Shown: positions 4,034 to 31,135 of the stretch, piece after piece
How the letters are laid out: the number at the start of each line of letters is the position of its first letter
Position numbering within the stretch: position 1 is the first letter of the stretch
NCBI GenBank assembly: GCA_051362555.1
Contig: CM120647.1
Span: 12,934,651-12,998,650, forward strand
Direction: 5' to 3'
DNA from: Lingula anatina
Taxonomy: Eukaryota > Animalia > Brachiopoda
DNA length: 64,000 bases
Notes under the pieces: model-generated
What the model saw: only the letters and a program-made list of their open reading frames with translations
The model's database searches: none
What the model was told of the DNA's origin: nothing
Program-made: the position numbers and the translations under genes

Positions 4034-4065
4034 CTTGGCAGTTTTTCCCGTAGTACCCGGCAGAT
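4034..4065 (-). pseudogene. 3' fragment of a type B EGF exon at a deletion junction
   Basis: SAGYYGKNCQ G|GTAAGC is joined directly to intron sequence homologous to 7130-7260. Confidence 0.75.
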
Positions 4066-4253
4066 ATTTGATACCTGGTATAATTAACATCACCGACTAT
4101 CTGGTCTTTCCAAAAAAAAAAGGCAGACAAACACGCATATATGCTCGCAAAAACATAAATCCTAGAAAACGCTCGCAATCACATTAACTCATACACAGTG
4201 ATTTTCTCAATGTGTTATTTAAAAAAAACGCAGGGAGAACGTTGGATACCTAC

Positions 4254-4364
4254 CTTGGCAGTTTGTACCATAGTACCTGGCAGAACACAAACATCGATAG
4301 GAATTCACCAGGTCAACACACGTCCCACCATTCTGACAAGGACGACTGGAGCATTCACTGATTT
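4254..4364 (-). CDS. Copy B EGF exon type B (second)
   Basis: [37 protein letters not shown], 111 nt. Confidence 0.9.
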
Positions 4365-7300
4365 CTAAAAAGTTAATATGAATTACAATAACGGAAGCTG
4401 GTAAAAAGGGTAATTTATTTTAATCGTAAAACCAAAACAGCTTATAAATAACACAGAAAACGGTGTACTGACTTTGTTAAGTTGACAAGTTAAAAATTTC
4501 ACTCCATATGTTTTCCTTCCATTGATCAGTATACTCTATTTATATAAGCTATTAAAGTCAAATACCAAGTTGACACAATTTGCCAGTGAAACCAGGAAGG
4601 CAATGGCAGTCAAACCCGCCATGATTATTTATACAGGTGGCGCCCCTAGCACATGGGTTGTTCATGCATTCATTGATGTCTGCAAAAGAAACAAAATATA
4701 TTTGTACCTTTAACTGATAATTTTACTTTTTACTTTAAACTTTTTCAAATGTGTAATAATTATTATGCCCTGGATAATCATTTTGCAAACAAAGGTAATC
4801 AAAAGAAAAAAATTATACAAATATTTTGATAGTATGAAAGAGTTCGATGCGTTCAAAAAATAATCATATCAACTTAAAGCGCGAGAGAGTATCCATGCAG
4901 TTTTATATAGGCTTTATACAAAAAGTAATGAAAAACTTTTCATTAGTCTCACATATTACAAAGACTTATAGTTTACTATCTACCGTTTTCACACAATGTG
5001 CCTTGGAAACCGGAAGAACAAGAACATTGGAACGACTCTACAGTGATCTCACAATGGGCACCATTTCTGCAAGGTTTACCTAGGCAATGGTTGGTCACTA
5101 GAATGAATACATGTGTTCACACCCCATTAAACTTCTTCAGACTTACAAGTACCTCCTCGTCCAACAGCCATGAAATGGGGTAAAAGATTTGCCACGGAAT
5201 TGACTTTCTTTAAATTTTTATTATTCTCGATTATACATACTTGACATTTAATATGGAATATTTCAGTTTCGAAGGTATGCCTAGGTAAAAATGCGTTCTT
5301 TTTTCAAAAACACTCCGATCTGTATAAGATATGTGAATGGAGAAGTGTGTAGTCAGGTGTGTCGCTACCAATTAACTGAATACCAGGTTTGTTGCGCTGC
5401 TGCATTATGTAATATGCAGTGATTTAATTGGGTAGTGCTCCTTTGGGGAGGTCAAAGCTTGGCTTTGGCAAAGCATGGTTCTGAGAAAAAAGTTTCCATA
5501 CACTGTATGTCGGCAACTACTGCATAGAAGAATTTGAAATTTTGCATGCAAGTGGTCGGTATTGCAGTGTGTAAAATGAGCTATGTAGTGCTTTACAAAT
5601 TTGCTAATCTGTCCCAGAATGGCGTGAAAAAAACAGGCATTGCCGGACAGATAATTGCGCCGAATGAAGCGGTCTGCACAGTTTTATAGAGTAATGCCCT
5701 GACTGATGTACCTACACAGAGGCCACACCCAATGTATTGAAATCTTACCTAAAGGGCACAGGACCCACTGTCTTTTGGGATATGCTGTTGCAAGTAAACA
5801 GAAAAATAAAACATCCAGTCCGTTCAGAATGAGGGGAAAACTGCCACCAAAACGCATTTTCAAGGCCCTTAGCGAACACCAAACTGGTTTTAGCAGGTTA
5901 GAATACCAGACGACCACCAAGGAACCCACTGTAAACAGCAAAACATCGTTGTATGTTTCTCTGATGAATTGGAGACCTTGACCGTTTCTGGGTTGAACAC
6001 TGAAACCTCGTGGCTTTCTTTATTAAGGTCAGATTTCACCTGTACCGCTCAACTATAGTCAAAACAGAGTTTACAGACATCCAGAAGAGGCCAACGACGA
6101 AGCGTGTGCTGCGTCTAAAGTGACTAAGGTCATTAACAGCGTCAGTATTTGGAGCGGAGTACCAAAACACCAATGGTAGTCATCGACGGAAACCTGAACC
6201 AGATCAAATAAAGGAATAATCTGGGAACCACTTGACTATCATTTGATAGGGGGCACCTTAGGAACAATTTTAGGTTGCACAGTGAAAATGCCAGTTCATA
6301 CAGAGCACTTTTAATAGCAAATTACTTACAGAACCAAGGGAATGAACAGCTACCTTGGTCATCAAAATCGCCATATTTGAACTACATAGACAATGTGTGG
6401 GTAGGCCATTACTCGCCACATCAATATCCTACATGTCCTGTAACAAAACTGGACCAAATTGGACAGATTTTGACTGATGCCTGGAATGTTATTCCAGGTT
6501 GAACTCTTAAAAACCTAATCCAAGGAATGCCTTGACATTTGAGAGCGCTTGCAGCAACCAGAATATGTCAGGCGTAACAGCAACCGTTACTGTGACTAGA
6601 CACTTACATGAGGGTCCTTTGTGGAGCATGTAACTCTTTTACAGACAATAATTTAGAAAATATGGAGATCCAAAATATCTCTTTTAATGGTTGTCGTATG
6701 ACATAGAATAGGCAATGTGTTTTTGTTTGCTTCTCTGGCGAATTACATTAATGAACTGATGTCATAATGACATCAAAGAGATTATAAAGACGTTATTAAA
6801 ACGATTTTAATTCTTATTTCCATCTATCAGTCAGCAAAATAGGGAAAAATGATGAAAATGATTTGGAAAAAATAGTCCATATTAAATGTCAAATCTTTAG
6901 AAGAATAACAGATTTTTTATGTGAGACATCTGCAAAAATATAAAATGTTTAAAAAGTTTTTAACTGACTTAGTGACAGTCACGGCTGTTCTTACTTGTTT
7001 CACATATTTTGCCGGTATATCCAAACGGACAAGTGCAAGAATACGTATCATTTTGATTCCTGCAGGTAGCACCATTTTGACACGGGCTGCTGCGACAGGG
7101 ATCTCTCTCTGTAACGTAATTTAAACGGCTGTTGATACCTGATATAATTAACATAACACTCGTCTTTCCCAAAAGAGGCAGACACACACACGCAAATAAG
7201 CTCGAAAACAGAAAACACGCACGAACATATAAACACACATTGATTTGCTCAATTTGGTATTTCAAAAAAGAAGCGCAGGGAGAACGTTGAATACCTACCT

Positions 7301-8738
7301 TGGCAGTTTGTCCCTTGGTACCCGGCAGAACACAAACACCGATAAGAATTCACCATGTCAACACACGTCCCACCATTCTGACAAGGACGACTTGAACATT
7401 CACTTATTTCTTAAAAAGTAAATATTGATAAAACGTGATAAAATCTTCACTTGTAAAAGGGCCAAATTTATTTTATCGTAAAAAAACAAAAACAAAACAA
7501 ATTATAAATACCACGGAATACTTTGCACTGACTTTGTTTGATTCAGAAATGAAAGTTAGATATTTTAAAAATTCAAAATTAAACTTCATATTTGCACTGA
7601 TCAATACACTATTTTTTTACTATTAGCTAAATTTATTATCATACCAAGCTGACATAATTTGCCAGTAAAACCAGGAAGGCAATCGCAGTCAAAACTGCCA
7701 TGATTATTTCTACAGGTGGCGCCCCTGGCACACGGGTTGTTCATGCATTCATTGATGTCTGCCAAAGAAAAATATTTGTATCTTTAACTTATTTTCTGTC
7801 TATTTTCCAATTGCATTTCTTTGTACTTATTCCAGCCGTTATTATAGCATTTCTTCAAAGGTTTGCTTAGGCACTGGATGGTCACTGTAATAAATAGGCA
7901 TCTCTGTGGCCACACTCCATTAGATTTCGTCATGCCTACATTTCGGGCTGATATCTCGTTTTTTATTATTTTTAAAGTTGGATTTTCACTTTTATGGAAT
8001 GGCAAATTTTGAATATTTTCACCATATTTATCTAGAGATCCAATATAAAACCAAGCGTCTTCCTTCGCGTACTTACCATTTGACTCATTGTTTGTTGAAA
8101 CCAAATTATTGTTGAGTTGATCACTATTTTCTTTTGGGGTGAAGGCTAGCGACCATACAACAACAGCAACCAAGGCAGCGCATATGATTCCCGCCAACAC
8201 CAATGCTATTTGTAGCCGTCTATTCACGTTTGTCTTTGGTAGCTGTGCAAACCTTAGTTTGGGATCATTGGCATTTGCGGTTGGATGAGGAATCCTTAAA
8301 CTCTCATAAACATTTGATTCCTCCACTAAAGCATGATCAGCATCCGACGACGTTTCATATGTTGCATTCACATATGCGGCACTTTGGTTTTGGGGAGTAG
8401 TGAATAACTTGATACCTAAAAGTAGTTTTTGCTTGATTTCATCATGGAATCGACAACTTCAGTATTCTATTTGTATTGAATTTAAATGTTTTAAAAAGAT
8501 GAAATATATTTTATGGAAAGTGGTATTCTCAGATCACCTGAATATCATGGTCATATCCAAATAAATAAGTAAAGGTGAGAAACCAATATATTTACGCTGA
8601 GCAAACATTCAGCAAGTACTCTCCCTTTACATATTTTATAGCTTGAATTTAAAACAAATTTATGAAATAAACTCTAACTTATTCAAATTGAGTAAATTAA
8701 ACCTAAATCCCTGGATGCATACCTCTTTTGTCTGCCAT
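4254..8738 (-). CDS. Receptor copy B: type II TM protein with one Tyr-motif tail unit and 6 intact EGF repeats; 3' end unresolved (no SRCR exon in window)
   Basis: Exons 8738-8723 (MADKR), 8415-8077, 7758-7645, 7409-7299, 7108-6995, 5097-4984, 4679-4566, 4364-4254. All have AG/GT sites and phase-1 junctions, open for 344 codons. Confidence 0.85.
4566..4679 (-). CDS. Copy B EGF exon type A (second)
   Basis: [38 protein letters not shown], 114 nt. Confidence 0.92.
4984..5097 (-). CDS. Copy B EGF exon type D
   Basis: [38 protein letters not shown], 114 nt. Confidence 0.92.
5750..6600 (+). mobile_element. Degenerate Tc1/mariner transposase remnant in an intron of copy B
   Basis: 6275-6400 reads [10 protein letters not shown]...[26 protein letters not shown], matching the Tc1 motif DNA.PH...LPWPSxSPDLNPIENVW. 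Frameshifts and stops elsewhere; ends approximate. Confidence 0.8.
6995..7108 (-). CDS. Copy B EGF exon type C
   Basis: [38 protein letters not shown], 114 nt. Confidence 0.92.
7299..7409 (-). CDS. Copy B EGF exon type B
   Basis: [37 protein letters not shown], 111 nt. Confidence 0.92.
7645..7758 (-). CDS. Copy B EGF exon type A (Ca-binding EGF)
   Basis: [38 protein letters not shown], 114 nt, phase 1-1. Confidence 0.92.
8077..8415 (-). CDS. Copy B exon: cytoplasmic Tyr-motif tail + TM helix
   Basis: [21 protein letters not shown]...SNVYESL...[32 protein letters not shown]; acceptor ttttag, donor G|GTAAGT. Confidence 0.88.
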
Positions 8739-10200
8739 GTTTACTTTCTTCCAAAATTCAAGAGCTGTGGAATGATAAAATGCTGTACTGCCACATCTGG
8801 CAAAGAAAGAATATAAAGGTGTATTTTGCAATTACGTCGCATTTCACAATATATTGGTTCCTCAACACGTTTCAGTGGATTACAAAAATTTGGTTGTAAA
8901 ATGCGCCGTGGTTGCATGGTGCTTAAATAACGTTTTTTTTTTCCTTTGATTACAAAAGGCGGTGAGCTTGCAGTAGTGAGAGTGCTCAAAATGTATTATC
9001 TGAGCGACATCAAGCCCGGTGTTACAGGGGCTTAAGATAAAGAAGCATGAAATATTACGATTTGCCACCCACCGCGTTTTCTATAGCTGACATGTTGGTA
9101 AATATGTGTTATCTATAATCCCTGTACATTAGCAACGAGACCTAACTGTAATGTAAACTTTCCTATCGATTTTTTCACTTACACTAGACCAAAGGATATT
9201 TTGAAAAATGGTTGTTTGTGTTAAACATTTTCAGCTCTTATCATGTTCAGTTTTAGGTCGTTATTTAGCTAAATATTTCCGTTGTAAAGTTGCAATAATA
9301 CAACTGCAAACAGAACCTACCGCAAACTTAAAACTGTGGAGGTACTTATTGTACACTTTGCCACTGTATATTTTGCCATTTATATCACATTATCATCATT
9401 TGATGGAAATAGACATGTACTTATTGATAAGTAAACAAGACTCGTAACCAAAAGATCATAATGTTTCTGATTCTTAAATGTTTAATAAGGAAAAGACATT
9501 ATCGCCAAGGTCACTATGATAAGCACAACCATTGTATCTACACTCACTAACATTTAATTCATTTCAACATTTTAACTTTGCAACGCAGTGCGACAACTGT
9601 GAGATGAGATGACTTATGTTTAGAAGTATAAACGTAAAATTTCCAAACCTAGAATACATAATTATTGTACTTACCAGTGTGTTTGCATAGTGGTGTTTTC
9701 AAGCAGCCTTTTTACTAATGTGACACTGCGCACGTTTGTTGACAACAACGCCTTCGCTCCCACGCTAAAACTAATCAATATTGCTTCCTGGTTCACAAAC
9801 GAGTTCAACACGTGACAGGACAAATACGTCGCTGCAAAATGTTTGCCTCTAAAAGTGGTTGCTTTTTTATTTATTTGAGCTCCATTCATAGGGACGAGGT
9901 AGTACTTCTAAATTGTCGACTTTGAAGGTAGGTCCTGATATTTTTATTCCAATTGTAAAGACAAAGTACACCCCACAAATAAAATATGCACTGAGGTACT
10001 TCATAGCTTTACTTTTTCGTCCCAAATATGCTCATAAAATACGATCCAGATACTAAATCCCCATATTCCTAAGTTAAAACCTCCATAGTTACTTGACGGT
10101 TGCAATAAAGTTCTAGTTAGAGTAGCTTCACGGATAGAGGTCATAATGTTTACACAACATAGCATCTTTGGTAGAGATAAAAAAATTATCATTAGGTTGC
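8590..10200. repeat. Paralogous 5' region of copy B, homologous to 23620-26045 of copy A
   Basis: Colinear shared blocks, e.g. ccctggatgcatacctct, cactagaccaaag, gtcactatgataagcacaacc, aaacctagaatacataattatt, ggtcataatgtttacacaac. Confidence 0.93.
9675..9850 (-). promoter_or_regulatory. Putative non-coding first exon and promoter of copy B (ETS site, GTCACGTG E-box)
   Basis: GTAAGT donor at 9674; CCAGGAAG at 9784-9791 and GTCACGTG at 9809-9816; all three conserved in copy A. Confidence 0.5.
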
Positions 10201-11639
10201 GGTAGTGAGGCGCCTTTAGCAGTATACAACTAAAACAATACATGTGAGGACGTGTGGCGGGATTAAACTGTTCACTTCTGCTTGGGATGGCCCCACTTCG
10301 CACCTAACACTTAAAATGTATTATCTAAATTTTCAGCAGGGCCCGAATTTCATCAACACTGGAGAGCGCTGTCCTTTGGATACCGTGTACCTGAACTATC
10401 CATTTATCACTGTGTCACTGCTGTTACATCATATACATACTGATACAGGGTCGCTTGTCACCTTTATTGGTTGATGAGTCAAGAACCATAGAAAACAATT
10501 TTGAAATGCGATGCTTCAGTCCAACATAATGGAAACAACATCAGCGTCGGTTTAGTACTTAAAAAAACACTCATATTACAGTAGATTATATGTAGATGTA
10601 GGTAAATAGTATTTTCCTAATTTTTTAACAGTTTCCCCTTAACCAAATACATATATGTACAGTTTACATTATCTTGGAAGACAGTAACTGAAAATACATT
10701 TTAATGAACGATCTCGTGCTATTCACATTTCATTCAAGCAATTTTCCAAAGAGAATTGGAATAAAGTTAATAATAATCATAATAATTAATACACAATAAA
10801 TAGCTTTTCACTACAAATATTTCAATGCAATTAAGTTATGTGCAGTGCTTAAGATATAACCGTATGCTATACTAAAAGGATGCATTCTACTCTAAACTTA
10901 TTACAAAATACGAAGTTGAAAACATGTACCGCAAAAACTATAAGTGCGGTTTTCAAACTGTCTTAAAAATCTGTGATTGAATATTATTTCTCATTCCAGA
11001 CAATAACAGGTTTACTAAAGTATATTTGGAGGAGCCCCGGTGAGACGCCTTAAAAAAGAAGAATTAAAAAACCAATGTGCTGGTCATGTAACTGGTAAAG
11101 GGGGGCACCGAAGTCACCGGGGAGAGAGTTGAGAACCCGCCACTGAACCGTGAAAAAGATCTGTGATTTCTTATCTCTCCATTTAACCAGCTCAGTGGGT
11201 TACTGAAATTAATTTCCTTGTTGAAGATTAATGGCACCGATCACAACGTCTGACCGTTCGGTTATTTTCTTTGCATTTACAACATAATCTTTCCTCCTCT
11301 TATGTGAAATCACACTACTAGATGAATCAGATCATTTACTCTCTAATCAAGAGTGTCTTTCATGGCTGGACCAATATAGCCTACCATACCAATATAGCCT
11401 ACTATACATTCTTGAGTCAATGTACGAAGGATATGGTGGCCATTATAACCTATCGACACTGATATAACATTGTAAGGTAAAGCGCTGGTCTGTAAATCTG
11501 TGTTGAATTTTATTTTGTTGGCATGACAAAATATCAACAAATTACAGAATTTAAAAAATCAACACTTGTTAAATAATAGGGTGTTCATATGGCACTTTTG
11601 TCTTCCCGTAGGAGGTTTACTAAGTTCTAAGATGCACAG

Positions 11640-11973
11640 CCAAAAATAAAGAACGCCAGCATCTTCAGCGTGATTACAGTTTTCAACTGCCCAACCATTG
11701 TGACCACATGACCCAATATTGGATTCTGAGCCTGTGCATCCGACATCGTCCAACCATATGGTTCCTTTGCCTTGTCCAAAATATGCACTCTCTACAGCAA
11801 GTGCGTTGGAATATGGAAGACTTAAGGACTTGCAGAAAACTCTGGCATCAGTGTTATCCCAGTTGTCATCGCAACTGTTCCCCAGCCTCCATTATGGTAC
11901 ACTTCTACCCTACCACCGTATTTGCCATTGATATTTATTCCAGTAAGACGGTACGGGTGACTGGACACAAAAG
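11640..11973 (-). pseudogene. Frameshifted SRCR terminal exon of the headless block
   Basis: YRLTG...[29 protein letters not shown]...NCNHAEDAGVLY. 1-nt deletion at ~11873 (gcaac vs gcaaac in copy A), last Cys is Tyr, and TGG stands where copy A has TGA. Confidence 0.85.
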
Positions 11974-12216: not shown

Positions 12217-12330
12217 CTGATTCACAATTCCTGCCTGTATATCTGTAAGGACAGCTGCAGGAATACGATAAAGTTTCATTCCTACAAATGGCGCCATTCT
12301 GACAGGGTGTGCTGCGACAGTGATCTGCTT
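12217..12330 (-). CDS. Headless block EGF exon type C
   Basis: EADHCRSTPCQNGAICRNETLSYSCSCPYRYTGRNCES, 114 nt, intact splice sites. Confidence 0.75.
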
Positions 12331-12499
12331 CTGTAGCAAATATGGCGAATTTTCTAAGCATGTTCTTGTTAGTTTTCTTTTTATTGAGTTTAACTACGCA
12401 GGCAATTCATATAATACATTTTCTTTATATATGGATTTCATGTACAAATTATATTTATCATAATCCAAACATATTTGCTCATATATTTTCAAGTTTCAC

Positions 12500-12610
12500 C
12501 TTGGCAGTTTGTCCCGTAGTACCCGGCAGAACACAAACATTGATAAAAATTCACCATGTCAACACACGTCTCACCATTCTGACAAGGATGGCTGGAACAT
12601 TCACTGATTT
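12500..12610 (-). CDS. Headless block EGF exon type B
   Basis: [37 protein letters not shown], 111 nt. Confidence 0.75.
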
Positions 12611-12810
12611 CTAAAAAAAAAAGAGTATATTAATAAAACATTATTTCATTTTAAAAGCAAAACATCTTATAAATACCGCAGAAAATGTGTACTGACTGTT
12701 AATTTTAGAATTTAATGTTAGAGATTTCGAAAATTAAAAAATTCACTTGGTATTTAAGTTTTCTTTGCAATGACCTGTATACCACCCTTTTACTGGCTAA
12801 AGTAACATAC

Positions 12811-12924
12811 CAAGCTGACATAATTTGCCAGTAAAACCAGGAAGGCAATCGCAGTCAAAACTGCCATGATTATTTCTACAGGTGGCGCCCCTGGCACATG
12901 GGTTGTTCATGCATTCGTTGACGT
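12811..12924 (-). CDS. Headless block EGF exon type A
   Basis: [38 protein letters not shown], 114 nt, nearly identical to 7645-7758. Confidence 0.75.
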
Positions 12925-13273
12925 CTACAAAAGAAACAAAATATATTTGTACCTTTCTTTTTCCATTGATTTTCTTATTGCAGTTCTTTGAACTTATCCC
13001 AGTCGTTATTATAGCAAATATATAATATTCACTATATTCTGCACAAACAGATTGCGTTACAAAGTTATAGAAAAGAAAGAACCATTACAAAACATGTAAT
13101 TTGATAATAAAAAAATTGCTTGATGCGTTCAAAATGGGAACATAATATTTTAATGTGTATGAGAGCTAATTAAATCAGTCTTATATTAACTTGTGATGGA
13201 CCCAAAGTAATGAAAAACTTTCATTGGTCTACCAGGTCATTCAAATTACACAAACTTATGGTTTGGTACCTAC

Positions 13274-13387
13274 CGTTGTCACACCATGTCCCTTGGTAAC
13301 CGGAAGAGCAAGAACATCGGAACGAGGCCACCGAGTTCTCACACTTGGCACCATTTTTGCAAGGGTTGCTTATGCAGTGATTGGTAA
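13274..13387 (-). pseudogene. Headless block EGF exon type D lacking its normal acceptor
   Basis: TNHCISNPCKNGAKCENSVASFRCSCSSGYQGTWCDN G|GTAGGT; the expected AG|TG is replaced by TCTT. Confidence 0.7.
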
Positions 13388-13989: not shown

Positions 13990-14204
13990 CTTCTCTTTGG
14001 GGTCATTAATGACCCCACAAGAGTTTGTGCTGTATGCGCCACACTAATTGGTTGATCCCTACAAAAAAACTGTGAAAGTGTGTAGGATTAGTAGACTGAC
14101 AAACTCATGCAAGGAAAGAAAGTTGGAATAAAAAATAAAGAGATGGCACATTAAATCATATGGCTGGGGTCGTAAATGACCCCACTCGGTCACTTGAGGG
14201 TTAA
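13990..14204. mobile_element. piggyBac-like non-autonomous element end
   Basis: Two ggggtc.taatgacccc-type palindromes and a terminal AGGG followed by TTAA (14201-14204); other end not found. Confidence 0.55.
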
Positions 14205-14424
14205 GACTCAATATTGGGTTCTGATCACGTGCAGTTGACAGCCGTATGGTTCCACCACCTTATCCGAAATAGGCTTCTGTACAGCAAATTCCCTTAATAA
14301 CTGAAGTATATTTTTAGCAAAATCGAAGTTACTGAAAATATATTTAAATAGAAAGAAACTTCATTAAGATTAATAATAATAAAAATAATTAAATGTCAAA
14401 TGTTATTTATAGCACTCCATTTCA

Positions 14425-15108: not shown

Positions 15109-15443
15109 TCAATAACAAATAACTCCAGCATCTTCATCGTGACCACAGTTATGAATCCCCCAACCTCTGTGAGTACATGATGCAATGTTGGGTTCCCACC
15201 CTGTGCAGTCAATATCGTCCAACCATATAGTTCCATTACCTTGCCCGAAATACGCACTCTGTATGCTAAGTGCTCTGGAAAAGGGAAGACCCAAGGACCT
15301 GCAGAATACTTGAGCATCAGTATTATCCCAGCTGTCATCGCAAACTGATCCCCAACTTCCATTATGATACACTTCAACTCTGCCACTATAGTTTCCAATG
15401 GTAATTGATCCAACAAGACGGTACAGGGGACGGTACAGCAAAT
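15109..15443 (-). CDS. Copy A terminal exon: intact group A (6-Cys) SRCR domain
   Basis: YRLVGS...[33 protein letters not shown]...[46 protein letters not shown]; phase-1 acceptor tttcag. Confidence 0.93.
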
Positions 15444-18400
15444 CTGAAATGTTCAATGAAAACATGTTCAAAGAGAAAAACAACTTACAGGTACAACTAA
15501 TACCTCAATATCACTTTAAAATAACGCAAAATAATATTGTACCCAAAAGGGTTTGCCTAAAGGGTCAATGACCCATGAATGCACACCCCCCAATACAAAT
15601 AATAAAAACTCTACTTAGTACTAAAAACGACACTGTGTACATCTAAAAACGACAATGTGTACATCTGCAACGACCCACCCAAGTGCAAACGTTCTCGGGG
15701 TCAAAGCGCTCCGCCAGAAGAGCACCATAGTGCTCTCTGACGGATCGTCTAAACATTGATCTACCAGCCCTTGAACGAGTGCAAATGGGAAGGGCGTTCC
15801 AGATGGGAACATTACGATTGAAATATGACCGGCTACACGTTTCGGTTCTACAGAAGTTGGCACTATGGATGATAAAATGATCCCCTTCTTTCTCTAAAAT
15901 ACAAATACTTCGAATGATCAAGGTCAGCCCTGCCAATAAAACAATTATACAGAAAGGTAACGTCTAAAATTTCTCTTCTATAAGCTAAAGGCAGCAAGTT
16001 TAAAGCGATTAGTCTATCTTTATAATTCATTAGGTTACCCAGAATATGCCTTGTGGCAGATCACTGCACCCTTTCTAGTCTTATCAAATTTTCTTTTGTA
16101 ATGTGATCCCAAAATACAGAATTAAACTCAAGCTTTGAGCGTACTAACGAATCAAAAAGAGGCTGTATTAACCTTGGGTTCCTATTTCTATCAAACATTC
16201 GCCTAATAGTTGCCCATGTCTGATTTGCACTTTTAACAATGTTATTTACATGTGGATTAAAAGTCAGCTCGCTGCTAACGGTAACTCCTAAATCCCTTCG
16301 TGTACCTTTGTCAAGAGATGTCCAGAGATGTTATAATAAAATACAGTTGGATTTACCTTCCGTGTGTCACTTAGCAGCATACATTTTTTAGCATTCAATA
16401 TCATTCCCCACCGGTTACACCACTCTACTACTTTCTCAAGATCCCCCTGGGGGCCAAACAATCAGCCAAAGAGCTAATTAATGTATGCATTTTTGAGTCA
16501 TCAGCAAAAAGAGACGTGTATTTAATTTAAAGAGAGAGTCATATTCTGTCAATGAATAATTGAAATGAAGTTTCAAATTTTGTACAGAATGTTTACACTT
16601 AGAATTAACTCACATTTTATTGTATTTTCTTCGACACTTATTCTCATTTTACCTACAGTCTTGCAAAACTGATTATATCAACATTTTTTCATGACACGGC
16701 TTTAACCTGATTCACAATCCCTGTTGGTATATCTAGAATGCTAGCTGCAAGAAAAGGTGTTACCACAACTACTGCACGTGGCACCTTTTGTAGCATGTTA
16801 ACATTAAGTATTATTGTCAGCAGTAAGACATGATATGATTTCAGCAATATTCAGTGAGATGAAATCGATTATGTCTATGTCTCTGTAAATAACGCCCCAG
16901 CTTTATTCTGTAATTTACTGTTTTGTCACCAGGCCTCTGTCTGACACATATAATTCGTTCTTGTAAGAACGTACCAGAACATATTATCTAGTTCATAATC
17001 AGAAACATTTTTGCATATTATTTTTCATCTTATATTTATTATTTTTTCTCACCTTGACAGTTTATCCCGTAGTATCCGACAGAACACAAACATTGATAAG
17101 AATTCACCATGTCAACACACGTCCCACCATTCTGACAAGGACGACTGGAACATTCACTGATTTCTAAAATAAGAAACATGAATAGATGTCAACTGAAAAA
17201 AGAGCAGAGTCATCATTCACCGACTTCTAAAGTGGTAATATATTCGGTAAATTAATGTCAGGATACAGGAATTATCCAATCGTAAAAGAAGCAACACGCC
17301 ATCCAGGTATCTTAAAATAAAACTTTGCAAAATCTGTTATCCTGTAATGGCATTTAAAAAGGTCGTTTATTCAAAACAAAAACACTTGTAATGTATGTTC
17401 TAACTAACTTACAGGAGATAATTCTACGTGGTTTTGTTAAAAATTTAAATTCTGCATAATTTTAACGGATATCCTACCTAGCTGGCAGTATGTTCCTGTA
17501 AAACCACCTGGACAACTGCAGTGAAATCCGCCATAACTGTTTTGACAGGTGGCGCCACTGACACACGGGTTATTCAAACATTCATTTATATCTGAAAAGA
17601 AACAAAATATGCACCAAAGACTTAATTTTAAAGTTCAATTAAGTTAAGAGTTTTTTTTTCACCTTAAACATGTAATTGTGAAACTGTTTTTACATCATTC
17701 ATGTGCTGCTTGATAAATGTGCCTTTTCTGTTGAACGCATTTACAAGATTAGAGTTTTTAATGATTTTGAAAGAAAGTCAACGAGAATAAATGGTGTGAT
17801 CCAGAGTGCAAATAACGTTTATGAAAACTTGTGTTAACTGTGGCATCGAATGTCACATATTTTTCTTCAGATGAGTTCAACCGGGTATAGTGAAAATTGT
17901 ACTGCCACAAACAACAATGTGTGTGCATGAAGACTTACCGTCTTTGCACCTAGGTCCTTGGAAACCGGAAGTACAAGAACATAGAAACGAAGCTGCCAGG
18001 TTTACACACGAGGCACCATTTTTACAGGGTAGGCTAAGACAATGGTTGGTCACTTTGGTAAAGTATGGATAAATATGATTAGATTTCATAACAGAAATAT
18101 CTTGCTAACAATGCAGTTACACCCATAACACTGGGGATTAATATGTGTGAGTTATGGAATGCGTGAGAAAATTATATATAACTTCTTGACAGTTATTTGT
18201 CGATTTCTCTACTTCATGCTGAAACATTCTAAAATACAGTTTATCATAATGAACGTTTCGTGTAACAATTTAACCATTTTTCAAAATTTTCCCAATTTAC
18301 AACTATCCTTAAATTATTCTTTTACTTGAACCTGTCCTAGACGCATGGCCGTTTTTGTGCTAGAACATCGCAAGAATACAAAATGTTTTCCAATAGATTG

Positions 18401-19448
18401 ATTACTTGTTAATTAGGTTTAACCACAGCCACAGCTGAAGTTCTTACTTGTTTCACAATTTCTACCCGTATATCCAGACGGGCAGCTGCATATATACGTC
18501 TCAGATTGATTCCTGCAGACTGCACCATTTTGGCAAGGCTGGCTGCGACAGGGATCTCTAGCTGTAACACAAGTTTCAGGTGTGCTAATGGTACTTTCTA
18601 TAGCTTAAATCACCCTCTCGTTCTTTTCAACAAACACAATGGAAACACCTGCTCAAAAATACTGAAACCAATACTGAAAAATACAAACCAATGTGGGTTG
18701 GCAAACACGCACACACTTTTTTTCAATATGATATTTGATATAAACACACAGAGAGAACGTTTAATACCTACCTTGACAGTTTGTCCCATAGTACCCTGCA
18801 GAACACAAGCATCTATAAGAATTCACCATGTCAACACACGTCCCACCATTCTGACAAGGATTGCTGGAACATTCACCGACTCCTGCAATTGTATCACAAA
18901 AGTTTCAGTAAAATGCATAAAAATGCATAAAATGTTTTGTCCGCTGGCTTGAGAACTCTCAACAATCATTTTTATATCAGACAAAGCTTATATTCCCAAT
19001 TCAGACCTCAAAATGGATCAAAACCTAAAAAAATAAAGTAGCGTGTAACGTGCCTACACCTGTAGTGTCGTTTTTATCTTTCTAGCTTTCTCGGCTGTCT
19101 TCTAATGTTGCTCACATTGTTTGATTTACACACGACAAAGAATCGCTATTCAAAGCATGCGCCACTGTCTTGTGTAAAAACGAGTCCATGCTCGTAAAGA
19201 CAGATGTCGTTCTAACTGACAGGCAAGTCATTCACAATCAACATATTATATTAAAAAGGGAGTAAGACATCGAATACTAGTAGAGGAACGTGTCGAGCAA
19301 TAATTCGTTACCAGGAGATAGCATTTTACTTCAGGGAAATCTCGTACCTTTAAGAGGAAAAAGAAGCAGAAAAAATAGCTTACAAACACCACAGAAGACT
19401 ATGTTAATTTTGTAATTCAGTAACAATGTCAACATTTCACAGGTACTT

Positions 19449-19504
<56 letters not shown>

Positions 19505-20364
19505 TTCTCATTTATCAGTATAGTGTTTTTTGTCTTAATTAAAGTACAATACCAAGTTGACACAATTTGGCGGTGTGAAAGAAATGGTAGTCCTAGTAAC
19601 GCAAGTCTGACCGGACACTAAGTCCTGGGAATGCAAGTCCTAGGTCTAGCGTTTCTAGGAATTGATGTCCTAGGACATATGTTACTATGTCCGTGGGACA
19701 ACAGTTACCAAGGAATGCAAGACCCATTGCAAGAAATGCCAGTCCGGATGGGACCTCTTTTCCTGATTTATATTAGGACTATATGTCCGGTTTGACCTCT
19801 TTCTCGCACTTAAATGTATGTTACATATATTTCATAATAATATGTGTGTATTAAAATGACATTTGTCGTTACCTTTATTACTTTAATATTCACAAACTGA
19901 ATGAAAAAATTTAATAATGAAAAATAACACATAAGAAGTTGTAATGAATTTATTTTCATTTTATTAGACCTATTCATTTGTCTGATAAATTTCAAATTGG
20001 AGCCGTTGACTGCACATTTAAGGGTGCATCCTCCTTCTATTTGCAAGATGTACGGTCCAGATTTTGATATTCCTTTTATTAAATAAAGCCCTAGCCAGGG
20101 ATCTTCGTGCTTTCCACCTTATCTGTCTGAACTTCTTAGATTGCGTTTTAGAACCGTTGTACCTATGGTAAGCACCTGTGTAAAAGAATTAATTATGATA
20201 AGTCTTTTTCACATAATTTATAATAATTCAACAAAAATTTATAGAAATGGAAATTGAGCAAGAAATAAGCATACGTACACACCGCAGCAACAGCAATACA
20301 AAATAACCTCAGGCAAACAATGTACTTATAACGGTCATAATATGTGAAAGAAAAGTTTTATTGG

Positions 20365-20437
<73 letters not shown>

Positions 20438-23400
20438 GAATGCAATGATGACTCACTAAAATGTATTACCTCATCTGTAGAATGGCGAGCATCATATCTC
20501 TTCTTTTGCTCTTGTTGAGCCTTTCTCATGTTTTTCAGTACTGCCTCTCCTACTGTCTTGTTCATAGTGACCACCCTATTTTCCACTTCTTTTTGACAAT
20601 CTGCAACAGTCGGCATATGTATGCCACTGGGCCCTGGCACTTCTTCACCATCTTCTCCATCACTTTTGCACACATCTGTTGGTAGTACAGGTTCTCTACA
20701 GACAAAATAAATTTAATTGTATGCACAGTTACCCATTCCTTAAATTTTATTTATTATAATCATCCGATATAACATATAATAAAAAGACGACATTGTTAAA
20801 TATCACTTACATCATTGAAGAAAATGTGTGGAAATATATATATTTTTATTTATTTTATTTTATTATTATTATTATTATTTTTTTTTTTGATAAAAAGCCA
20901 AAGAATCCAATATTTATGGTGAAGAAAAGTTCAAATTCCTCTTTACCTCCAAAACATCAGATAAAAAGGGGAAAACCCAGTCGATGCATTGATGGACGTA
21001 TTATACGCAAAGACAACATCCCCAAAAACTTCGTCCCATTGGTGATCATCCTGGTACTTTAACAGCATGTCCTTCAGGGTTTGGTTAAAAAGTTGTGGAA
21101 AAAAGGATAAATAGTAAAATTCATCCAATACATAAATGTTATAGAAGAATATGTACTCATCTCACCAAACTAATAACTTGTATAGATAGCATTATATAGT
21201 ATGTATTATATAAAATGGCCAATCTAACCCTTAACTAAAATGTGGGCTAAAATTACTGACAATATATGGCATACAAACATGTATAAAATGTGTTTATTAA
21301 AGAATAAAACATACCCGTGAGACCATTGCATTGAGGATGGTAAGCTGTGGTTCTTGTGTTTAATTTTGAGGGATGTGGTTATGGAATGTAACAAATTGTT
21401 GTTATGAAAATTAACTGTAAATGAACGCTTACTTTATAATTCGACTTGTTAGTTCTTCGAATTACTCTTTTCTGGGTCGGTGTTGTGCCTATCGGATATG
21501 TGCCCTCTTGAAGATATTGAAATATAACCTCTATGTTGGGTCTATCACGGGTGCTGCTCGTCCCTTCCATATCCAAAGTCAAGTGAGGGTGTGGTATAAG
21601 AAAATGAGCGTATTTATAGTAGTGCAAGAAAGCGCGTGGCATCTGTAACCAACCAAAATCATCTGACGTGGCAAAGTAAAATGACCAGCAAACATGACAA
21701 AGACATAAAAATTACGAAAATCACACCGGTAAAACGAGGAGGACAATTGCAGTCAAAACCATCATGGTTCTTTCGACAGGTGGCGCCTCTGGCACATTGG
21801 TTGTTCGAGCATCCATTCCTATCTGGAAATGAACAAGTATCAAATATTCTGTCAATTTCCACGGTACAGTTCTTTATTCTATTCCAGTGCATAGTATATA
21901 TTTAATGATATACTTTATACTTGTACAATTACAAAATGACGGGTTTTGTACCCACAGTTTCGCCACCAGATGGACATTGTGCCTTGGTAAGTGGAAGATA
22001 TATATCATTATGTCTCAGCGATCAGTTTTATTTGCTTTATTGAACAACACAAGAGTCAGATCTGAAAATGTAAAGAATTGTCTCATTTCAAGACAAGAAT
22101 CTGGACAAGAAAGGCCACGTCTTTCCTATGCCGCGACTTGCGAACGACTCATAGTAATAACAACATCAACTTAAAAGCAACTCAATCACACGAATAAAAA
22201 CATGAATAACTATACAACAAAATTACTTAACTAACAAAATAACTTAACTTATAAAACGAAATGTATCAAAAATAAACAATTTATGTGAAGTAGGAATGGA
22301 ATGATAAAGGAGGAATAATAAGAAACCAAAAGTTGAATACCAAATGAAACATAAGAAAGAAAAACAGAAATAAAACTCACGCCTACCTGAAAATATAAAA
22401 GAAGTGTCTCATTTCAAGACAACAAACTGGACAAGAAAGACCACGTCTTTCCTATGGCGCGACTTGCGAACGACTGATCTCTTTCCCTCGCGCGAAACAG
22501 ACTTTGGACAAAGAAAAACACACACAAGAGTAAACGAAAATACACGAATGAAGACGAACGAAAACGAACACAAGGAGAACACAATGACAGCACAAGGAGA
22601 GCGAAACTAAAGTATTTCGCCTGTCAAAAGTACACCAAAAAGGCCACATAGTTCTCGCACTTGATACTATTTCAACAAAGTTTCCCAAACCAATGATTGG
22701 TCAGTGTCATACATATCTACGGTCAAGCACCTTAATAGTCTGCCATGCCAAAGCTTTGGAGTAATATATGGTAATTAGTAATCGATAAAAATTTGGACTT
22801 TCACATGATTAACAGAACCCTTTATTTAATTAAATATATAATTATTTTATAAATTTATTTGTCTATATTTTCTATTTTCTATTTGTCTTCCGCCATTTAT
22901 TTTCAAATTAAACCTATTGTTTACAGAATTAAAACTTTTACAATTATGGCTGAGTTGCTCACTTTTTTCTTCTTGGGTATGCACAAGTGACCATACAACA
23001 GTAACAACCAGTGCAGCGCATATGATTCCAATTAACACCAATGCTATTTGTAACCGTCTATTGACTTTTGTCTTTGGTGGCTGTGTAATGCTTGGATTGG
23101 TGTCAATGACATTGTTGGTAGGACCACAAATCCTAATACTCTCGTAAACACTTGACGTCTCCTCTGGAGCACAATTCACATCTGATGACGTTTGATTTCT
23201 ATTAACTTTTGTCTTTGGTGGCTGTGTAATCTTTGGATTGGGGTCGGTGATATTGTCGGTAGGACCACAAATCCTCATACTTTTGTAAACACTTGGCGTC
23301 TCCTCTGGAGCAAAATTTACATCCGATGACATTTCATATGTTGCGTTTACATACCCGGCGCTTTGGTTTCTATTAACATTAGTCTTTGATGGCTGTGTAA

Positions 23401-23767
23401 TCCTTGGCTTGGGGTCAGTGACATTGTCGGTAGGACTTAAAATCATCATACTCTCGTAGACATTTGGCGTCTCCTCTGGAGCAAAATTCATATCTGTTGA
23501 CGTTTCATATGTTGAGTTTACATACGCGGCGCTTTGGTTTGGAGGAGTAGTAAATAACTCGATACCTAAAAGCAGTAGTGAGAAACCAACACATTTATTT
23601 AAAAATATTATGTTGGACACTGGGCAAGCATTTCTTCGCGTACTCTCCCATCACATATTTATTTTTATAGCTTAAATTTTAGACAGATTAGTAGAATTAA
23701 ATCTTATTTGTACAAAATGATTAAATTAAACATTCATCCCTGGATGCATACCTCTTGTGTCTGCCAT
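15109..23767 (-). CDS. Receptor copy A: type II TM protein, 3 Tyr-motif tail repeats, 5 intact EGF exons (+1 transposon-split, +1 decayed), C-terminal group A SRCR; functional status uncertain
   Basis: Exons 23767-23752 (MADTR), 23565-~22942, [21822-21726+19569-19553 split], 18882-18772, 18561-18448, 18052-17939, 17591-17478, 17163-17053, 15443-15109 (TGA). Confidence 0.75.
15540..16530 (-). mobile_element. 5'-truncated CR1/L2-group LINE (RT C-terminus and 3' end)
   Basis: [58 protein letters not shown], then [21 protein letters not shown]...[12 protein letters not shown]; stops and frameshifts present. Confidence 0.88.
16707..16790 (-). pseudogene. Decayed type C EGF exon of copy A
   Basis: [27 protein letters not shown]|GT; in-frame TAG at a Cys position and 5' part lost. 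Confidence 0.8.
17053..17163 (-). CDS. Copy A EGF exon type B
   Basis: [37 protein letters not shown], donor GTGAG. Confidence 0.88.
17478..17591 (-). CDS. Copy A EGF exon type A
   Basis: [38 protein letters not shown]. Confidence 0.88.
17939..18052 (-). CDS. Copy A EGF exon type D
   Basis: [38 protein letters not shown], donor GTAAGT. Confidence 0.88.
18448..18561 (-). CDS. Copy A EGF exon type C
   Basis: [38 protein letters not shown]. Confidence 0.88.
18772..18882 (-). CDS. Copy A EGF exon type B
   Basis: [37 protein letters not shown]. Confidence 0.88.
19574..21725 (-). mobile_element. Ginger1-like (Gypsy-integrase-related) DNA transposon; intron-containing, internally deleted
   Basis: TGTGA...TCACA termini; flanks gcgg (19570-73) and ccgg (21726-29). 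Spliced integrase pieces: [11 protein letters not shown]...[18 protein letters not shown]|gt, [55 protein letters not shown] (GPY/F-like). No LTRs, gag or RT seen. Confidence 0.85.
21726..21822 (-). pseudogene. 5' part of a type A EGF exon split by the Ginger insertion (3' part at 19553-19569)
   Basis: Removing the element and one TSD restores exactly 114 nt: [33 protein letters not shown]+KLCQL G|GT. Confidence 0.9.
22062..22475. repeat. ~88 bp direct repeat pair (22062-22149, 22388-22475) in sequence absent from copy B
   Basis: ctgaaaat..aa..gtctcatttcaagacaa...ccacgtctttcctatg.cgcgacttgcgaacgact occurs twice. Confidence 0.8.
22942..23565 (-). CDS. Copy A exon: three Tyr-motif repeats (57, 57, 47 aa) + TM helix
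   Basis: [12 protein letters not shown]...NVYESM; [12 protein letters not shown]...SVYKSM; NQ-TSSD...SVYESI; then [31 protein letters not shown]. The only phase-1 donor I found is a weak T|GTAAAA, so the 3' boundary is uncertain. Confidence 0.8.
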
Positions 23768-23894
23768 GTTTACTTTCTTCGAAATTCAAGAGCTGTGGAA
23801 TAGTAAAATGTTATATTGCAACATGTGGAAATTTTTTAAGCATATTGCAAACGAAGAAAATGTAAATTTGCATTTTGCAATTACGACGCTTTTT

Positions 23895-24635: not shown

Positions 24636-25550
24636 TTTGGTTCCTCAACACTTTTCAGTGGCGTACATGTACAAACGTTGGCTGTAAAATGTGCCGTGGT
24701 TGCAGGTTACATAAATAATGTTTTTCTATGGTTGCAAACGGCGTTGAGTCTGTAGTAGTGACAATGCCCACAATTTATTCTCTGAGCGATCGCAAGTCCG
24801 GTGTTATAGGAGTTTAATATTAAAAACAGCAGGGAATATTACGATAAGCGACCCCCCGGGCTTTCTGTAACTGATATGATGGTAAATATGGTATCTATGG
24901 TGGTAAATATGATATCTATAACCTCTATACATAATCGATAAGACCTTACCGAAATGTAGACTTTCTTATCGATTTTGTCACTTCCACTAGACCAAAGAAT
25001 ATTGCAAAAAAATTGTTGTTCGTATTAAACATCTTTTCACTCCTTATTTTTATTAATTAATTTATTTTATTTTATTTATTTATTTATTTATTTTTATTTA
25101 TTTATTATTATTATTACTTTTTTTTATTTTGCTGAATGTCTCCGTTGTAAAGTATCAATAATAAAACTACAAACAGAACCTACGCCGAACTTAAGATCAG
25201 GTACGCGTTCATTACACTTTGTCAGTTCACACTGTCATTTATTTATTATCATTTGATGCAATTATACATGTACTTTTTGATGAGTAAAACAAGACAAGTT
25301 ACCAAAAGATCCTAATGTTTCAGGTTGAAAACCGCCTGATTCTAAAACGTTTAACAAAGAAAAGACACCATCGCTGAAGTCACTATGATAAGCACAACCA
25401 TTTCATCTACACTCACGAACATTTAATTCCCTTCAACATTTTTACTTTTAAATGTGGAGCACCATAGTTGCACAACTGTGAGATGAGATAACTCATCTAT
25501 AGAAGTATGTAAAATATTCAAAACCTAGAATACATAATTATTATACTTAC

Positions 25551-25730
25551 TAGTGCGTTTGCAAAATTGTGTTTTCGAACAGCCTTTATACTAATGTGAC
25601 TCTGCGCACGTATGTTAACAGCAACGCGTCAGCTCCAACGCTGAAACTAAGCAATACTACTTCCTGGTTCAGAAACGAGTTCAACACGTGACGGGGAAAA
25701 TATACGTCACTGCAAAACGTTTGCATCTAA
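25551..25730 (-). promoter_or_regulatory. Putative non-coding first exon and promoter of copy A
   Basis: GTAAGT donor at 25550, CCAGGAAGT at 25659-25667, GTCACGTG at 25685-25692; paralogous to 9675-9850. Confidence 0.5.
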
Positions 25731-27016
25731 AAGTGGTTGCTTTTTTTTATTTATTTGAGCTTCATTCATATAGACGGGGTTATACATTTACTCCTTTGAA
25801 GGCAGGTCCTGATTTTTTTTCTTTTTCCATTTGTCTAGACAAAAAGTACACCCACAAATAAAATGTGCACTGTGTTATTTCATAGCTTTACTTTTTTCGT
25901 CATAAAATACGAACCAGATACTAAATCCCAATATTCCTAAATTAAAACGTCCATAGTCACTTGACGATTGCAATAAATTTCTAGTTTAAGAGGTCATAAT
26001 GTTTACACAACGTAGCATCTTTGGTAGACATAAAAAGTTATCATCAGGTTGAAGAAGTGTACCCTAGGTTCTAGATTTCCGTATTGCCAGCTCGATCTTG
26101 ATTTCATACATAACCCATATCAGCAATACGAAACTCTAGCCACTAGCGGCAGATTGAGGGCGTGTTTGTCAAAATGTTGCCTGGGGCGCTTCCATATTTG
26201 GAAGTCGCAAGTCTCGTACGTCACAGCTGTATTCGCCTGAGAGCTCCATTTTTGGAAGTCACAAGTCTCGTACGTCATAGGTTTGGCCGCCTGAGCTGAC
26301 TTTCCCGCCCTTCGGTGACTTTATCTCGTGCAAACGAGACAAGAAGCAAAGTGGCTGATACGGAGTTTGAAGTTTGAACTAAGAATATCTTGTAGTCGTA
26401 GGTCAGTGCAACAACACAAGCAACATTCTGCTTTAAAAACTGATTTTGGTCTAGCCATTGCGCAGCCCTTATAGTGGTGTCGGGCATACAGTGTAGCTGT
26501 CAAACTTGGCACACGGTAAGCACGTGTGTTGTGTTTATATATTCAGGAGTAAATGTTATTTGATAAGCAAAAAATACAAAAACATTGGATATTGGATATA
26601 TCTTTTTCTTTTAGGAGAATATTATTCATTTTTCACTTTACATCTTAAATACAGTAAATGAAATTAAATAAAGCATAATTTTAAAAATCTGTTTTACGTT
26701 TCATTTTGGTTTAATGACATTCAACTGCAGACTCACTGTGCAAATTGTAAACAGTTCTTTTTATTCTTAACTCGGTTCTTTTATTCCAAAGTGACATAAG
26801 GCTGATCTCACCAACATCAAAACATCTTATAAAATCAATTGTAAAAATCGAGAACATTACATTAACCACTGCCGTCGTCCTAATATTTTCTTATGAAGGC
26901 TCCATTTTAGTTTAATAAAATTTCGTAAACGTATGAGTATTATATGACGAAGTAGATTATAACGTTTGTTGATACGAGAGGTAGTAAATACAAGAACGGT
27001 ATATTCTTTCATATAA

Positions 27017-27625: not shown

Positions 27626-31135
<3,510 letters not shown>

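What the first reader, a model, noticed from the sequence alone, without database searches (positions are those of the whole stretch)
4034..26045. Tandem family of type II EGF-stalk/SRCR receptors with Tyr-based signalling tails
Seen: no signal peptide, an N-terminal tail with Tyr motifs, basic residues (KTxVNRR) just before a single TM helix, then EGF exons and a terminal 6-Cys SRCR ending in a stop. Known: type II topology with one C-terminal group A SRCR defines class A scavenger receptors (MSR1, MARCO, SCARA5), but these use coiled-coil/collagen stalks and short tails. Inference: this is an SR-A-like pattern-recognition receptor with an EGF stalk and SH2-docking tail, diversifying by local duplication. 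I do not recognise the architecture as a named family. Automatic annotation would probably call it fibropellin-like or Notch-like and miss it.
Basis: partly seen in the sequence, partly recalled or inferred. Interest (0 to 1): 0.85.

Follow-up and report, generated by a model that had tools for sequence, protein, structure and literature searches.

The report
Brachiopod EGF-stalk scavenger receptor cluster
This stretch of lamp-shell (Lingula) DNA holds one complete gene, one broken copy and one incomplete copy of a family of membrane proteins, mislabelled Notch- or fibropellin-like in public annotation, that are predicted to hold a scavenger-receptor domain outside the cell on a stalk of EGF repeats and likely capture and take up microbes or debris; signalling through their tyrosine-bearing inner tail is possible but untested.

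Summary
The minus strand holds one complete 505-aa gene: Tyr tail, one TM helix, 5 EGF, 6-Cys SRCR, stop. It is 467/505 identical to Lingula anatina XP_013397944.1, named 'Notch homolog'. The second SRCR belongs to a headless, frameshifted pseudogene. The second TM gene has six EGF exons and no SRCR in the window. RefSeq holds 9 TM-bearing units with 2-9 EGFs. Their SRCRs form one clade, and true tail homologues were found only in Lingula. RNA reads, probably from paralogs or other alleles, join TM to EGF (7 reads) and EGF to SRCR (5). Type II topology is well supported by prediction. The SRCR keeps the cation site needed for ligand binding in SALSA, MARCO and SCARA5. It has no collagen, so it is not a class A scavenger receptor, but it likely works like one. 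SH2 signalling is unproven: YxNxTY is invariant in 8 of 8 tail units, but such short motifs are common by chance and could be endocytic signals. No dN/dS above 1. I found no description in print, but could not read the main Lingula immunity paper.

The parts
23752..23792 (-). Gene A first coding exon: 25 nt of predicted 5' UTR with an in-frame stop, then ATG at 23767 and 16 coding bases
   Evidence: same start as RefSeq P0122
22963..23565 (-). Gene A tail/TM exon: three tandem tail units (171- and 141-bp internal repeats), 7 Tyr, basic flank, TM helix at residues 177-200
   Evidence: donor at 22963 used by 7 reads
21726..21822 (-). 5' part (97 bp) of an EGF exon split by an insertion; absent from the RefSeq ortholog model
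19574..21725 (-). 2,152-bp insertion with TGTGA...TCACA ends and a 4-bp CCGG/CCGC flank; Ginger1-like by ends and target site only
   Evidence: no long inverted repeat and no Pfam hit
19553..19573 (-). 3' part of the split EGF exon with its donor; 97+21-4 = 114 bp, the size of the intact paralogous exons
18772..18882 (-). Gene A EGF exon 1 (type S)
18448..18561 (-). Gene A EGF exon 2 (type R)
17939..18052 (-). Gene A EGF exon 3 (type L)
17478..17591 (-). Gene A EGF exon 4 (type N, starts with a calcium-binding-EGF-like D-x-N-E-C)
17053..17163 (-). Gene A EGF exon 5 (type S)
   Evidence: joined to the SRCR exon in 5 reads
16707..16810 (-). Dead EGF exon (type R) with stops and no acceptor (approximate bounds)
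15109..15443 (-). Gene A terminal exon: group A SRCR (6 Cys, all cation-site residues) and stop
14200..14280 (-). Short decayed SRCR remnant with a stop
   Evidence: (E 0.46, weak)
12217..13385 (-). Headless module: EGF exons 13385-13274 (usual acceptor lost), 12924-12811, 12610-12500, 12330-12217; matches the 3' part of the first unit of XP_023931956.1
11640..11973 (-). Broken SRCR of the headless module: 1-bp frameshift, sixth Cys lost, stop lost
9261..10207 (-). Upstream non-coding region, 78% identical to 25124-26059 upstream of gene A; marks the duplication unit
8723..8764 (-). Gene B first coding exon, ATG at 8738
8077..8415 (-). Gene B tail/TM exon: one tail unit, 3 Tyr, TM helix at residues 73-96, short neck
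4254..7758 (-). Gene B six EGF exons (7758-7645, 7409-7299, 7108-6995, 5097-4984, 4679-4566, 4364-4254), open in frame; no SRCR downstream in the window
4034..4064 (-). 3' remnant of a duplicated type S EGF exon

Best explanation
The window holds one complete gene and two damaged or incomplete copies of a Lingula family of single-pass membrane proteins, predicted to be type II, that likely act as cell-surface scavenger or pattern-recognition receptors. SHOWN: exon structure; family-level splicing of TM to EGF and EGF to SRCR; a cluster of paralogs with 2-9 EGFs; an SRCR that keeps the metal-ligand residues while the positions next to them vary. INFERRED: the uncleaved TM helix anchors the protein with its N-terminus inside. 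The EGF rod holds the single SRCR away from the membrane at a member-specific height. The SRCR binds polyanionic surfaces (microbial walls, debris, matrix) through a Ca2+ bridge. The tail then drives uptake through a YxxPhi motif and probably also recruits an SH2 adaptor after phosphorylation of the invariant YxNxTY. The family turns over by tandem duplication, EGF exon gain and loss, exchange of heads and 3' ends between copies, and pseudogenisation.
For: Model A: open 505 aa, 467/505 identical to XP_013397944.1. Reads join 22963 to 21817 (7 reads) and 17058 to 15444 (5 reads) in 2 of 4 runs. The charge bias before the helix holds in 7 of 7 helices checked; each unit has one TM peak and no signal stretch. 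Gene A has an in-frame stop before its ATG, and the leader differs by one base between A and B (25 vs 26 nt). SALSA site 2 (D1019, D1020, E1086), whose disruption abolishes binding (PMC7043408, passages), corresponds to an Asp-Asp pair and a Glu present in 9 of 9 complete family SRCRs; the residue just before that Glu takes 6 states. The same site is essential in SCARA1, SCARA5 and MARCO (PMC11525585, passages). Family SRCRs form one clade, 13 rows at 100/96, apart from 16 other SRCRs including 4 from Lingula DMBT1-like proteins. YxNxTY is invariant in 8 of 8 non-orthologous full tail units and the third Tyr is kept in 7 of 8; gene A tripled the unit. Mosaic evidence: gene B's head matches P0121b (102/112) but its R and L EGF exons match P0124 (35/37, 32/37). 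SRCR genes across invertebrates, Lingula included in the panel, are reported as enriched in digestive and immune tissue (PMC10855680 section 2.3; genes not resolved).
Against: No ligand, cell type or challenge response is known. Depth on the exons was 1.7 or less. The reads differ from the window at 4-7 places, and 3 of 4 decoded changes in the first EGF exon match the paralog XP_013397971, so gene A's own transcript and its 22963-to-18882 junction were not seen. In shuffles of the first tail unit YxN appears in 27%, YxxPhi in 51% and an ITIM-like motif in 7%. 15 of 63 tail columns are invariant anyway, and the units are close relatives. The RefSeq ortholog of gene A has lost the Asn in its first unit, and P0127 has Phe for the third Tyr. 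All 28 dN/dS values are below 1. The cation site is a general SRCR feature, not specific to immune receptors. A single SRCR binds weakly, and the protein has no collagen to trimerise it.
Confidence: 0.55

Rival explanations
1. A purely endocytic uptake receptor (nutrient particles, debris, matrix) whose tail tyrosines are sorting signals, not phospho-docking sites.
For: Every tail unit has a YxxPhi. SR-A1 internalises through a tail sorting motif (PMC4493455, passages). SRCR genes are enriched in digestive tissue. Only purifying selection was seen.
Against: The best-conserved element is YxNxTY, not the YxxPhi, whose Tyr is Phe in 1 of 8 units. Gene A carries three tail units with 7 Tyr. Gene turnover and variable residues beside the metal site fit recognition better than housekeeping uptake (inference).
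Confidence: 0.2
2. An adhesion or shell-matrix anchor of the mantle epithelium, binding apatite or matrix through the SRCR cation site.
For: Lingula shells are calcium phosphate, and EGF shuffling is frequent in its matrix proteins (PMC4595640, passages). SALSA binds hydroxyapatite and matrix proteins.
Against: 'SRCR' occurs 0 times in that paper's main text and once in its supplement, in a table of collagen partner domains. Birth-and-death turnover is not expected for a structural anchor (inference).
Confidence: 0.12
3. A cell-cell or self/non-self recognition family (allorecognition or gamete recognition), binding a protein ligand on another cell.
For: The window differs from the RefSeq models in gene content and head/stalk pairing, and tail/TM exons are about 91% identical to their orthologs. 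CD6 uses the same SRCR face for a protein ligand.
Against: No dN/dS above 1. The ortholog SRCR is 94% identical. Assembly differences or a cryptic species could explain the differences.
Confidence: 0.08
4. Opposite topology: the tail is a glycosylated or sulfated ectodomain, and the conserved N-x-T is a glycosylation site.
For: The N-x-T within YxNxTY is invariant in 8 of 8 units.
Against: It would put disulfide-dependent EGF and SRCR domains in the cytosol. The basic residues lie before the helix; there is no signal peptide and only one TM per unit.
Confidence: 0.03

Closest known systems
Class A scavenger receptors (SR-A1/MSR1, MARCO, SCARA5)
   Same: Type II orientation (predicted here), about 300-560 residues, one C-terminal group A SRCR with the ligand-binding cation site; best single-SRCR structure hits include 7bzz, 2oy3 and 7dpx at E about 1e-29.
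   Different: No collagen; stalk of 2-9 EGFs; tail of 72-176 residues with Tyr motifs instead of a short tail; multi-gene tandem cluster. The SRCR matches DMBT1 domains equally well, so descent from SR-A is not shown. Lingula has 5 separate collagen+SRCR proteins.
Class F scavenger receptors (SREC-I/II)
   Same: EGF-repeat ectodomain, single TM, sizeable cytoplasmic domain (PMC4493455).
   Different: Type I, no SRCR, C-terminal tail.
Type II C-type lectin receptors (LOX-1/SR-E1; Dectin-1, Ly49 and CD72 recalled)
   Same: N-terminal tail, TM, stalk, one C-terminal recognition domain (LOX-1); tandem clusters with Tyr-motif tails (recalled).
   Different: The recognition domain here is an SRCR and the stalk is EGF; no consistent ITIM or hemITAM across members.
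Invertebrate EGF+SRCR proteins (sea urchin, sponge, cnidarian, annelid, placozoan)
   Same: The domain pair is common: EGF-like is among the top partners of SRCR in 29 genomes (PMC10855680); ESM Atlas leads at 0.84 and 0.79 are mostly cnidarian SRCR+EGF clusters.
   Different: The usual layout is signal peptide, SRCRs, TM, C-terminal tail. No type II, single-terminal-SRCR form was described in the passages I read; the topology of the Atlas clusters was not checked.
RefSeq names 'fibropellin', 'Notch homolog', 'DMBT1-like', 'galectin-3-binding protein B-like' given to these Lingula models
   Same: They are the same genes or their paralogs.
   Different: The names come from EGF or SRCR similarity only; Pfam finds no CUB, avidin, LNR or ankyrin domain. 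Two models fuse two genes each (P0121, P0128).

Membership tests
Class A scavenger receptor | Type II membrane protein, N-terminus inside, single TM | tested here: met
   By prediction only: hydropathy, charge bias, upstream stop
Class A scavenger receptor | C-terminal group A (6-Cys) SRCR or C-type lectin domain | tested here: met
   PF00530 111.6 bits, 6 Cys, then stop
Class A scavenger receptor | Collagen domain (PMC4493455, PMC5119243, PMC7663992) | tested here: not met
   No run of 4 or more Gly-X-Y in 3 of 3 proteins checked; no collagen Pfam hit in P0121-P0124, P0127, P0128
Class A scavenger receptor | Coiled-coil stalk (absent in MARCO) | tested here: inconclusive
   Gene A goes from TM to EGF within about 8 residues; some members have a neck of about 20 residues, helical in a low-confidence model
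Class A scavenger receptor | Short cytoplasmic tail | tested here: not met
   72 residues in single-unit members, 176 in gene A
Class A scavenger receptor | Homotrimer at the surface | not tested
Class A scavenger receptor | Binding and uptake of polyanionic ligands | not testable with these tools
   Only the cation-site residues were checked
Class F scavenger receptor (SREC) | Type I topology, EGF-only ectodomain, C-terminal tail | tested here: not met
   TM precedes the EGFs; the protein ends in an SRCR
Class I / DMBT1-like SRCR proteins | Multiple SRCR repeats, no other ectodomain (SR-I) | tested here: not met
   One SRCR per unit; the family clade is separate from Lingula DMBT1-like SRCRs
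Notch / fibropellin | LNR and ankyrin repeats (Notch); signal peptide, CUB and avidin-like domain (fibropellin) (features recalled) | tested here: not met
   Pfam shows only EGF-type and SRCR domains above cut-off
Tyr-based immunoreceptors (ITIM/ITAM/hemITAM) | Consensus motif kept across members (consensus recalled) | tested here: inconclusive
   ITIM-like match in gene A's third unit, P0122, P0123 and P0124, not in gene B or P0121's first unit; chance rate 7% per unit; YxNxTY invariant instead
Ginger1 DNA transposon (the insertion) | TGTNR ends, 4-bp CCGG target duplication, 40-270 bp inverted repeats, integrase-like transposase | tested here: inconclusive
   Ends and target site fit; long inverted repeats and a transposase hit were not found

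The most novel reading that the evidence does not exclude
A haplotype-variable cluster of germline-encoded recognition receptors in a brachiopod, in which phosphotyrosine signalling heads, EGF stalks of 2-9 units and SRCR tips with different specificities are reshuffled by recombination. It would be an SRCR-based counterpart of the vertebrate type II lectin clusters (Ly49/Dectin), coupling scavenger-type binding directly to SH2 signalling.
Probability: 0.2. Interest if true: 0.8.

Novelty: new variant of a known kind. Interest (0 to 1): 0.52.

Why it matters
It would show that the class A scavenger-receptor layout (inside-anchored, one SRCR at the tip) was rebuilt in a lophotrochozoan with an EGF stalk and a Tyr-bearing tail, and then expanded. 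Name-based and collagen-based screens for such receptors in invertebrates miss it. It gives a concrete, testable candidate family for non-self recognition in brachiopods and corrects about a dozen misnamed or fused RefSeq models. The limits: it is made of common domains, looks confined to Lingula, and has no functional data.

Tried and rejected
No whole genome was held for this window, so family size comes from RefSeq proteins, not a genome scan. The run finder listed no indexed RNA holder, only 9 same-label raw-read runs; 4 of the 9 were laid on 14950-26100. There are no read data for 3300-14400, so the frameshift in the second SRCR, gene B's splicing and any splicing from gene A into the headless module remain unchecked against RNA. 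An SRCR-only search for long proteins listed 120 of 1,461 hits, dominated by multi-SRCR arrays. The search of short proteins listed 120 of 1,044; the 3 annotated with both EGF and SRCR were all Lingula. Both are crowded by repeats and are weak evidence of absence elsewhere. In the tail profile search, 2 of 5 hits (P0126, P0129) were rejected as repeat-inflated: no EGF, no SRCR. ESM Atlas gave leads under 0.9 only. The AlphaFold model had mean pLDDT 45.7 and was not used for a fold search. An upstream signal-peptide exon was rejected. The two-TM RefSeq models P0121 and P0128 were read as fusions of neighbouring genes, because both EGF arrays could not face outward. Positive selection was not supported (crude pairwise counts on 26-76 codons). 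Supplementary tables of PMC10855680, which list architectures and tissue expression of 113 Lingula SRCR genes, could not be read. Gerdol et al. 2018 (pmid 29278680, Lingula immune genes) is not held. Either may already mention this family.
Full report
1. What is in the window. Everything lies on the minus strand. In the direction of transcription there are three units. Gene A has an ATG mini-exon at 23767, a 603-bp tail/TM exon, five EGF exons and a terminal SRCR exon. All seven introns are phase 1 with AG/GT ends, and the frame is open for 505 codons up to the stop. It matches Lingula anatina XP_013397944.1 at 467 of 505 residues with no gaps, so the DNA is from Lingula. Two further EGF exons inside gene A are dead. 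One is split by a 2,152-bp insertion, and its halves add up to the normal 114 bp once a 4-bp duplication is removed. The other has stops.

Next comes a module of four EGF exons and a second SRCR. It has no tail/TM exon (tblastn at E<=1). Its first exon has lost the usual acceptor. Its SRCR has a 1-bp deletion, Tyr in place of the last Cys, and no stop. In RefSeq the matching unit (first half of XP_023931956.1) has a head and six Cys, so this copy is a pseudogene in this sequence, although the deletion alone could be an assembly error. Gene B has a head and six open EGF exons but no SRCR in the remaining 4.2 kb; it may be truncated or may continue beyond the window.

2. Splicing. Four of nine listed RNA runs were laid on 14950-26100 at 93% likeness. 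Two runs gave joints: TM exon to an EGF exon (22963/21817; 6+1 reads) and EGF to SRCR (17058/15444; 2+3 reads). The other two gave none. Depth on the exons was 1.7 or less. The reads differ from the window at 4-7 places, and 3 of 4 decoded residue changes in the first EGF exon match the paralog XP_013397971. The architecture is therefore transcribed in the family, but gene A's own transcript was not seen. No reads were obtained for 3300-14400.

3. Topology. Each unit has one hydrophobic peak (mean hydropathy 2.8-3.0 over 19 residues). In 7 of 7 helices checked, the 15 residues before it hold 4-5 Lys/Arg and no Asp/Glu; the 15 after are mixed or acidic. No signal-like stretch lies in the first 37 residues. 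The leader in the ATG exon is 25 nt in A, with an in-frame stop, and 26 nt in B, so it is not a conserved coding extension (this assumes the nearest CACAG is the acceptor). EGF and SRCR domains need disulfides. Type II orientation follows, by inference.

4. The family. Searches returned nine TM-bearing units in L. anatina RefSeq models, two pairs of them fused into single models, with 2, 3, 4, 5, 6, 7, 8 and 9 EGFs (the ninth is partial), plus three headless EGF-SRCR models. They lie on contigs of three lengths (459,621; 110,504; 195,260), and some may be alleles. Names are fibropellin, Notch homolog, DMBT1-like and galectin-3-binding protein-like. The 13 family SRCRs, the window's two included, form one clade (100/96) among 29 rows; the window's SRCRs pair with P0122 and P0121a. 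Heads and 3' parts do not travel together. Gene B's head is closest to P0121b (102 of 112) but its diagnostic EGF exons are closest to P0124. P0124 shares its head with P0251 while their SRCRs fall in different subgroups. This suggests recombination between copies, with misassembly as an alternative. A profile of four window tail segments against 1.84 billion representatives gave 5 hits: 3 Lingula family members and 2 repeat artefacts. The tail is thus Lingula-specific as far as this search sees. Whether the same layout exists elsewhere with an unrelated tail is not settled.

5. The SRCR. It is a group A domain, about equally similar to DMBT1, SCARA5, MARCO and MSR1 domains (E about 1e-29). 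Gene A has residues matching all three SALSA cation sites (PMC7043408). The site whose loss abolishes binding is kept in 9 of 9 complete family SRCRs, while neighbouring positions take 4-6 states and the overall mean identity is 73%. That fits a constant calcium bridge with variable surroundings, but these loops may simply tolerate change, and EGF types L, N and R are just as divergent (70-72%).

6. The tail. A unit of about 57 residues carries YxNxTY and, about 17 residues on, Y-x-S-hydrophobic. Across 8 non-orthologous full units the first motif is invariant and the third Tyr is kept in 7 (gene A's truncated third unit and the two RefSeq orthologs P0122 and P0121b were left out, as were P0124 and P0128a, whose tails are partial). 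Gene A has three units. pY-x-N is the Grb2 SH2 consensus and YxxPhi the AP-2 sorting signal (both recalled). Against over-reading: such motifs arise in 27% and 51% of shuffles, 15 of 63 columns are invariant anyway, and P0122's first unit has lost the Asn. dN/dS is 0.11-0.37 for 20 EGF pairs, 0.29 for the TM, 0.30-0.86 for 5 tail pairs, and 0.71 and 0.33 for two parts of the SRCR. This is purifying selection; no value exceeds 1.

7. Mechanism. Most likely (0.55) a surface scavenger or pattern receptor: Ca2+-dependent capture by the terminal SRCR, reach set by EGF number, uptake through YxxPhi, and probable SH2 recruitment. Rivals are pure endocytosis (0.2), shell-matrix adhesion (0.12), cell-cell recognition (0.08) and reversed topology (0.03). 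Only the gene structure, family-level splicing and residue conservation are shown.

8. Known families and literature. It works like a class A scavenger receptor by layout but fails membership: collagen is defining (PMC4493455, PMC5119243, PMC7663992; passages) and absent. EGF with SRCR is a common pair in invertebrates (PMC10855680, passages and section 2.3; PMC5117596, passages), usually in type I or secreted form. Ten full-text searches (two of them on side questions) and passages of PMC6321704, PMC9334734, PMC11525585, PMC7043408, PMC2836005 and PMC4595640 (with part 10 of 24 of its supplement) showed no description of this family. I saw nothing of Gerdol et al. 2018 beyond its citation, and none of the PMC10855680 tables. 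Two earlier scan notes describe placozoan EGF-SRCR receptors, one with an NPVY tail after the TM, a different layout (not checked).

9. Verdict. A real, probably undescribed, lineage-specific receptor family with an unusual layout, already in RefSeq under misleading names. New variant of a known kind; interest 0.52.

Noticed in passing
window 19574-21725 (-): 2,152-bp insertion with TGTGA...TCACA ends and a CCGG/CCGC target duplication inside an EGF exon of gene A; fits Ginger1 ends and target site, but no long inverted repeat or Pfam hit. The RefSeq ortholog model also lacks this exon.
   Followed up: partly
RefSeq XP_023931956.1 (P0121) and XP_013397947.1 (P0128): Each model fuses two neighbouring family genes into one two-TM protein.
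   Followed up: partly
window 27629-31207 (-): Gene with a FkbM/Methyltransf_21-22 last exon and a first exon with an N-terminal hydrophobic stretch and a 30-bp tandem repeat.
   Followed up: no
window 55456-56757 (-): Open frame of 434 codons, Ser/Pro-rich, no Pfam match; probably a large last exon of an unrelated gene.
   Followed up: no
window 32710-37216: Head-to-tail duplication of 2.27 kb at 96.7% identity; a recent duplication or an assembly artefact.
   Followed up: no
window 1-1950: Satellite of 67-bp units with higher-order periods, just downstream of where gene B's exons end.
   Followed up: no
window 5400-6600: Decayed piece in a gene B intron that resembles a Tc1/mariner transposase by recalled motifs; no Pfam hit.
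   Followed up: partly
window 14424-14924: 151-bp tandem repeat with internal 5-bp microsatellites, between gene A's SRCR and an SRCR remnant.
   Followed up: no
window 24246-24297 and 26056-26100: Short dispersed repeats that attract most RNA reads, with many different loose ends; not part of the genes.
   Followed up: no
TM helices of the family: A Cys is kept within the helix in 8 of 9 units; a possible dimer or acylation site.
   Followed up: no
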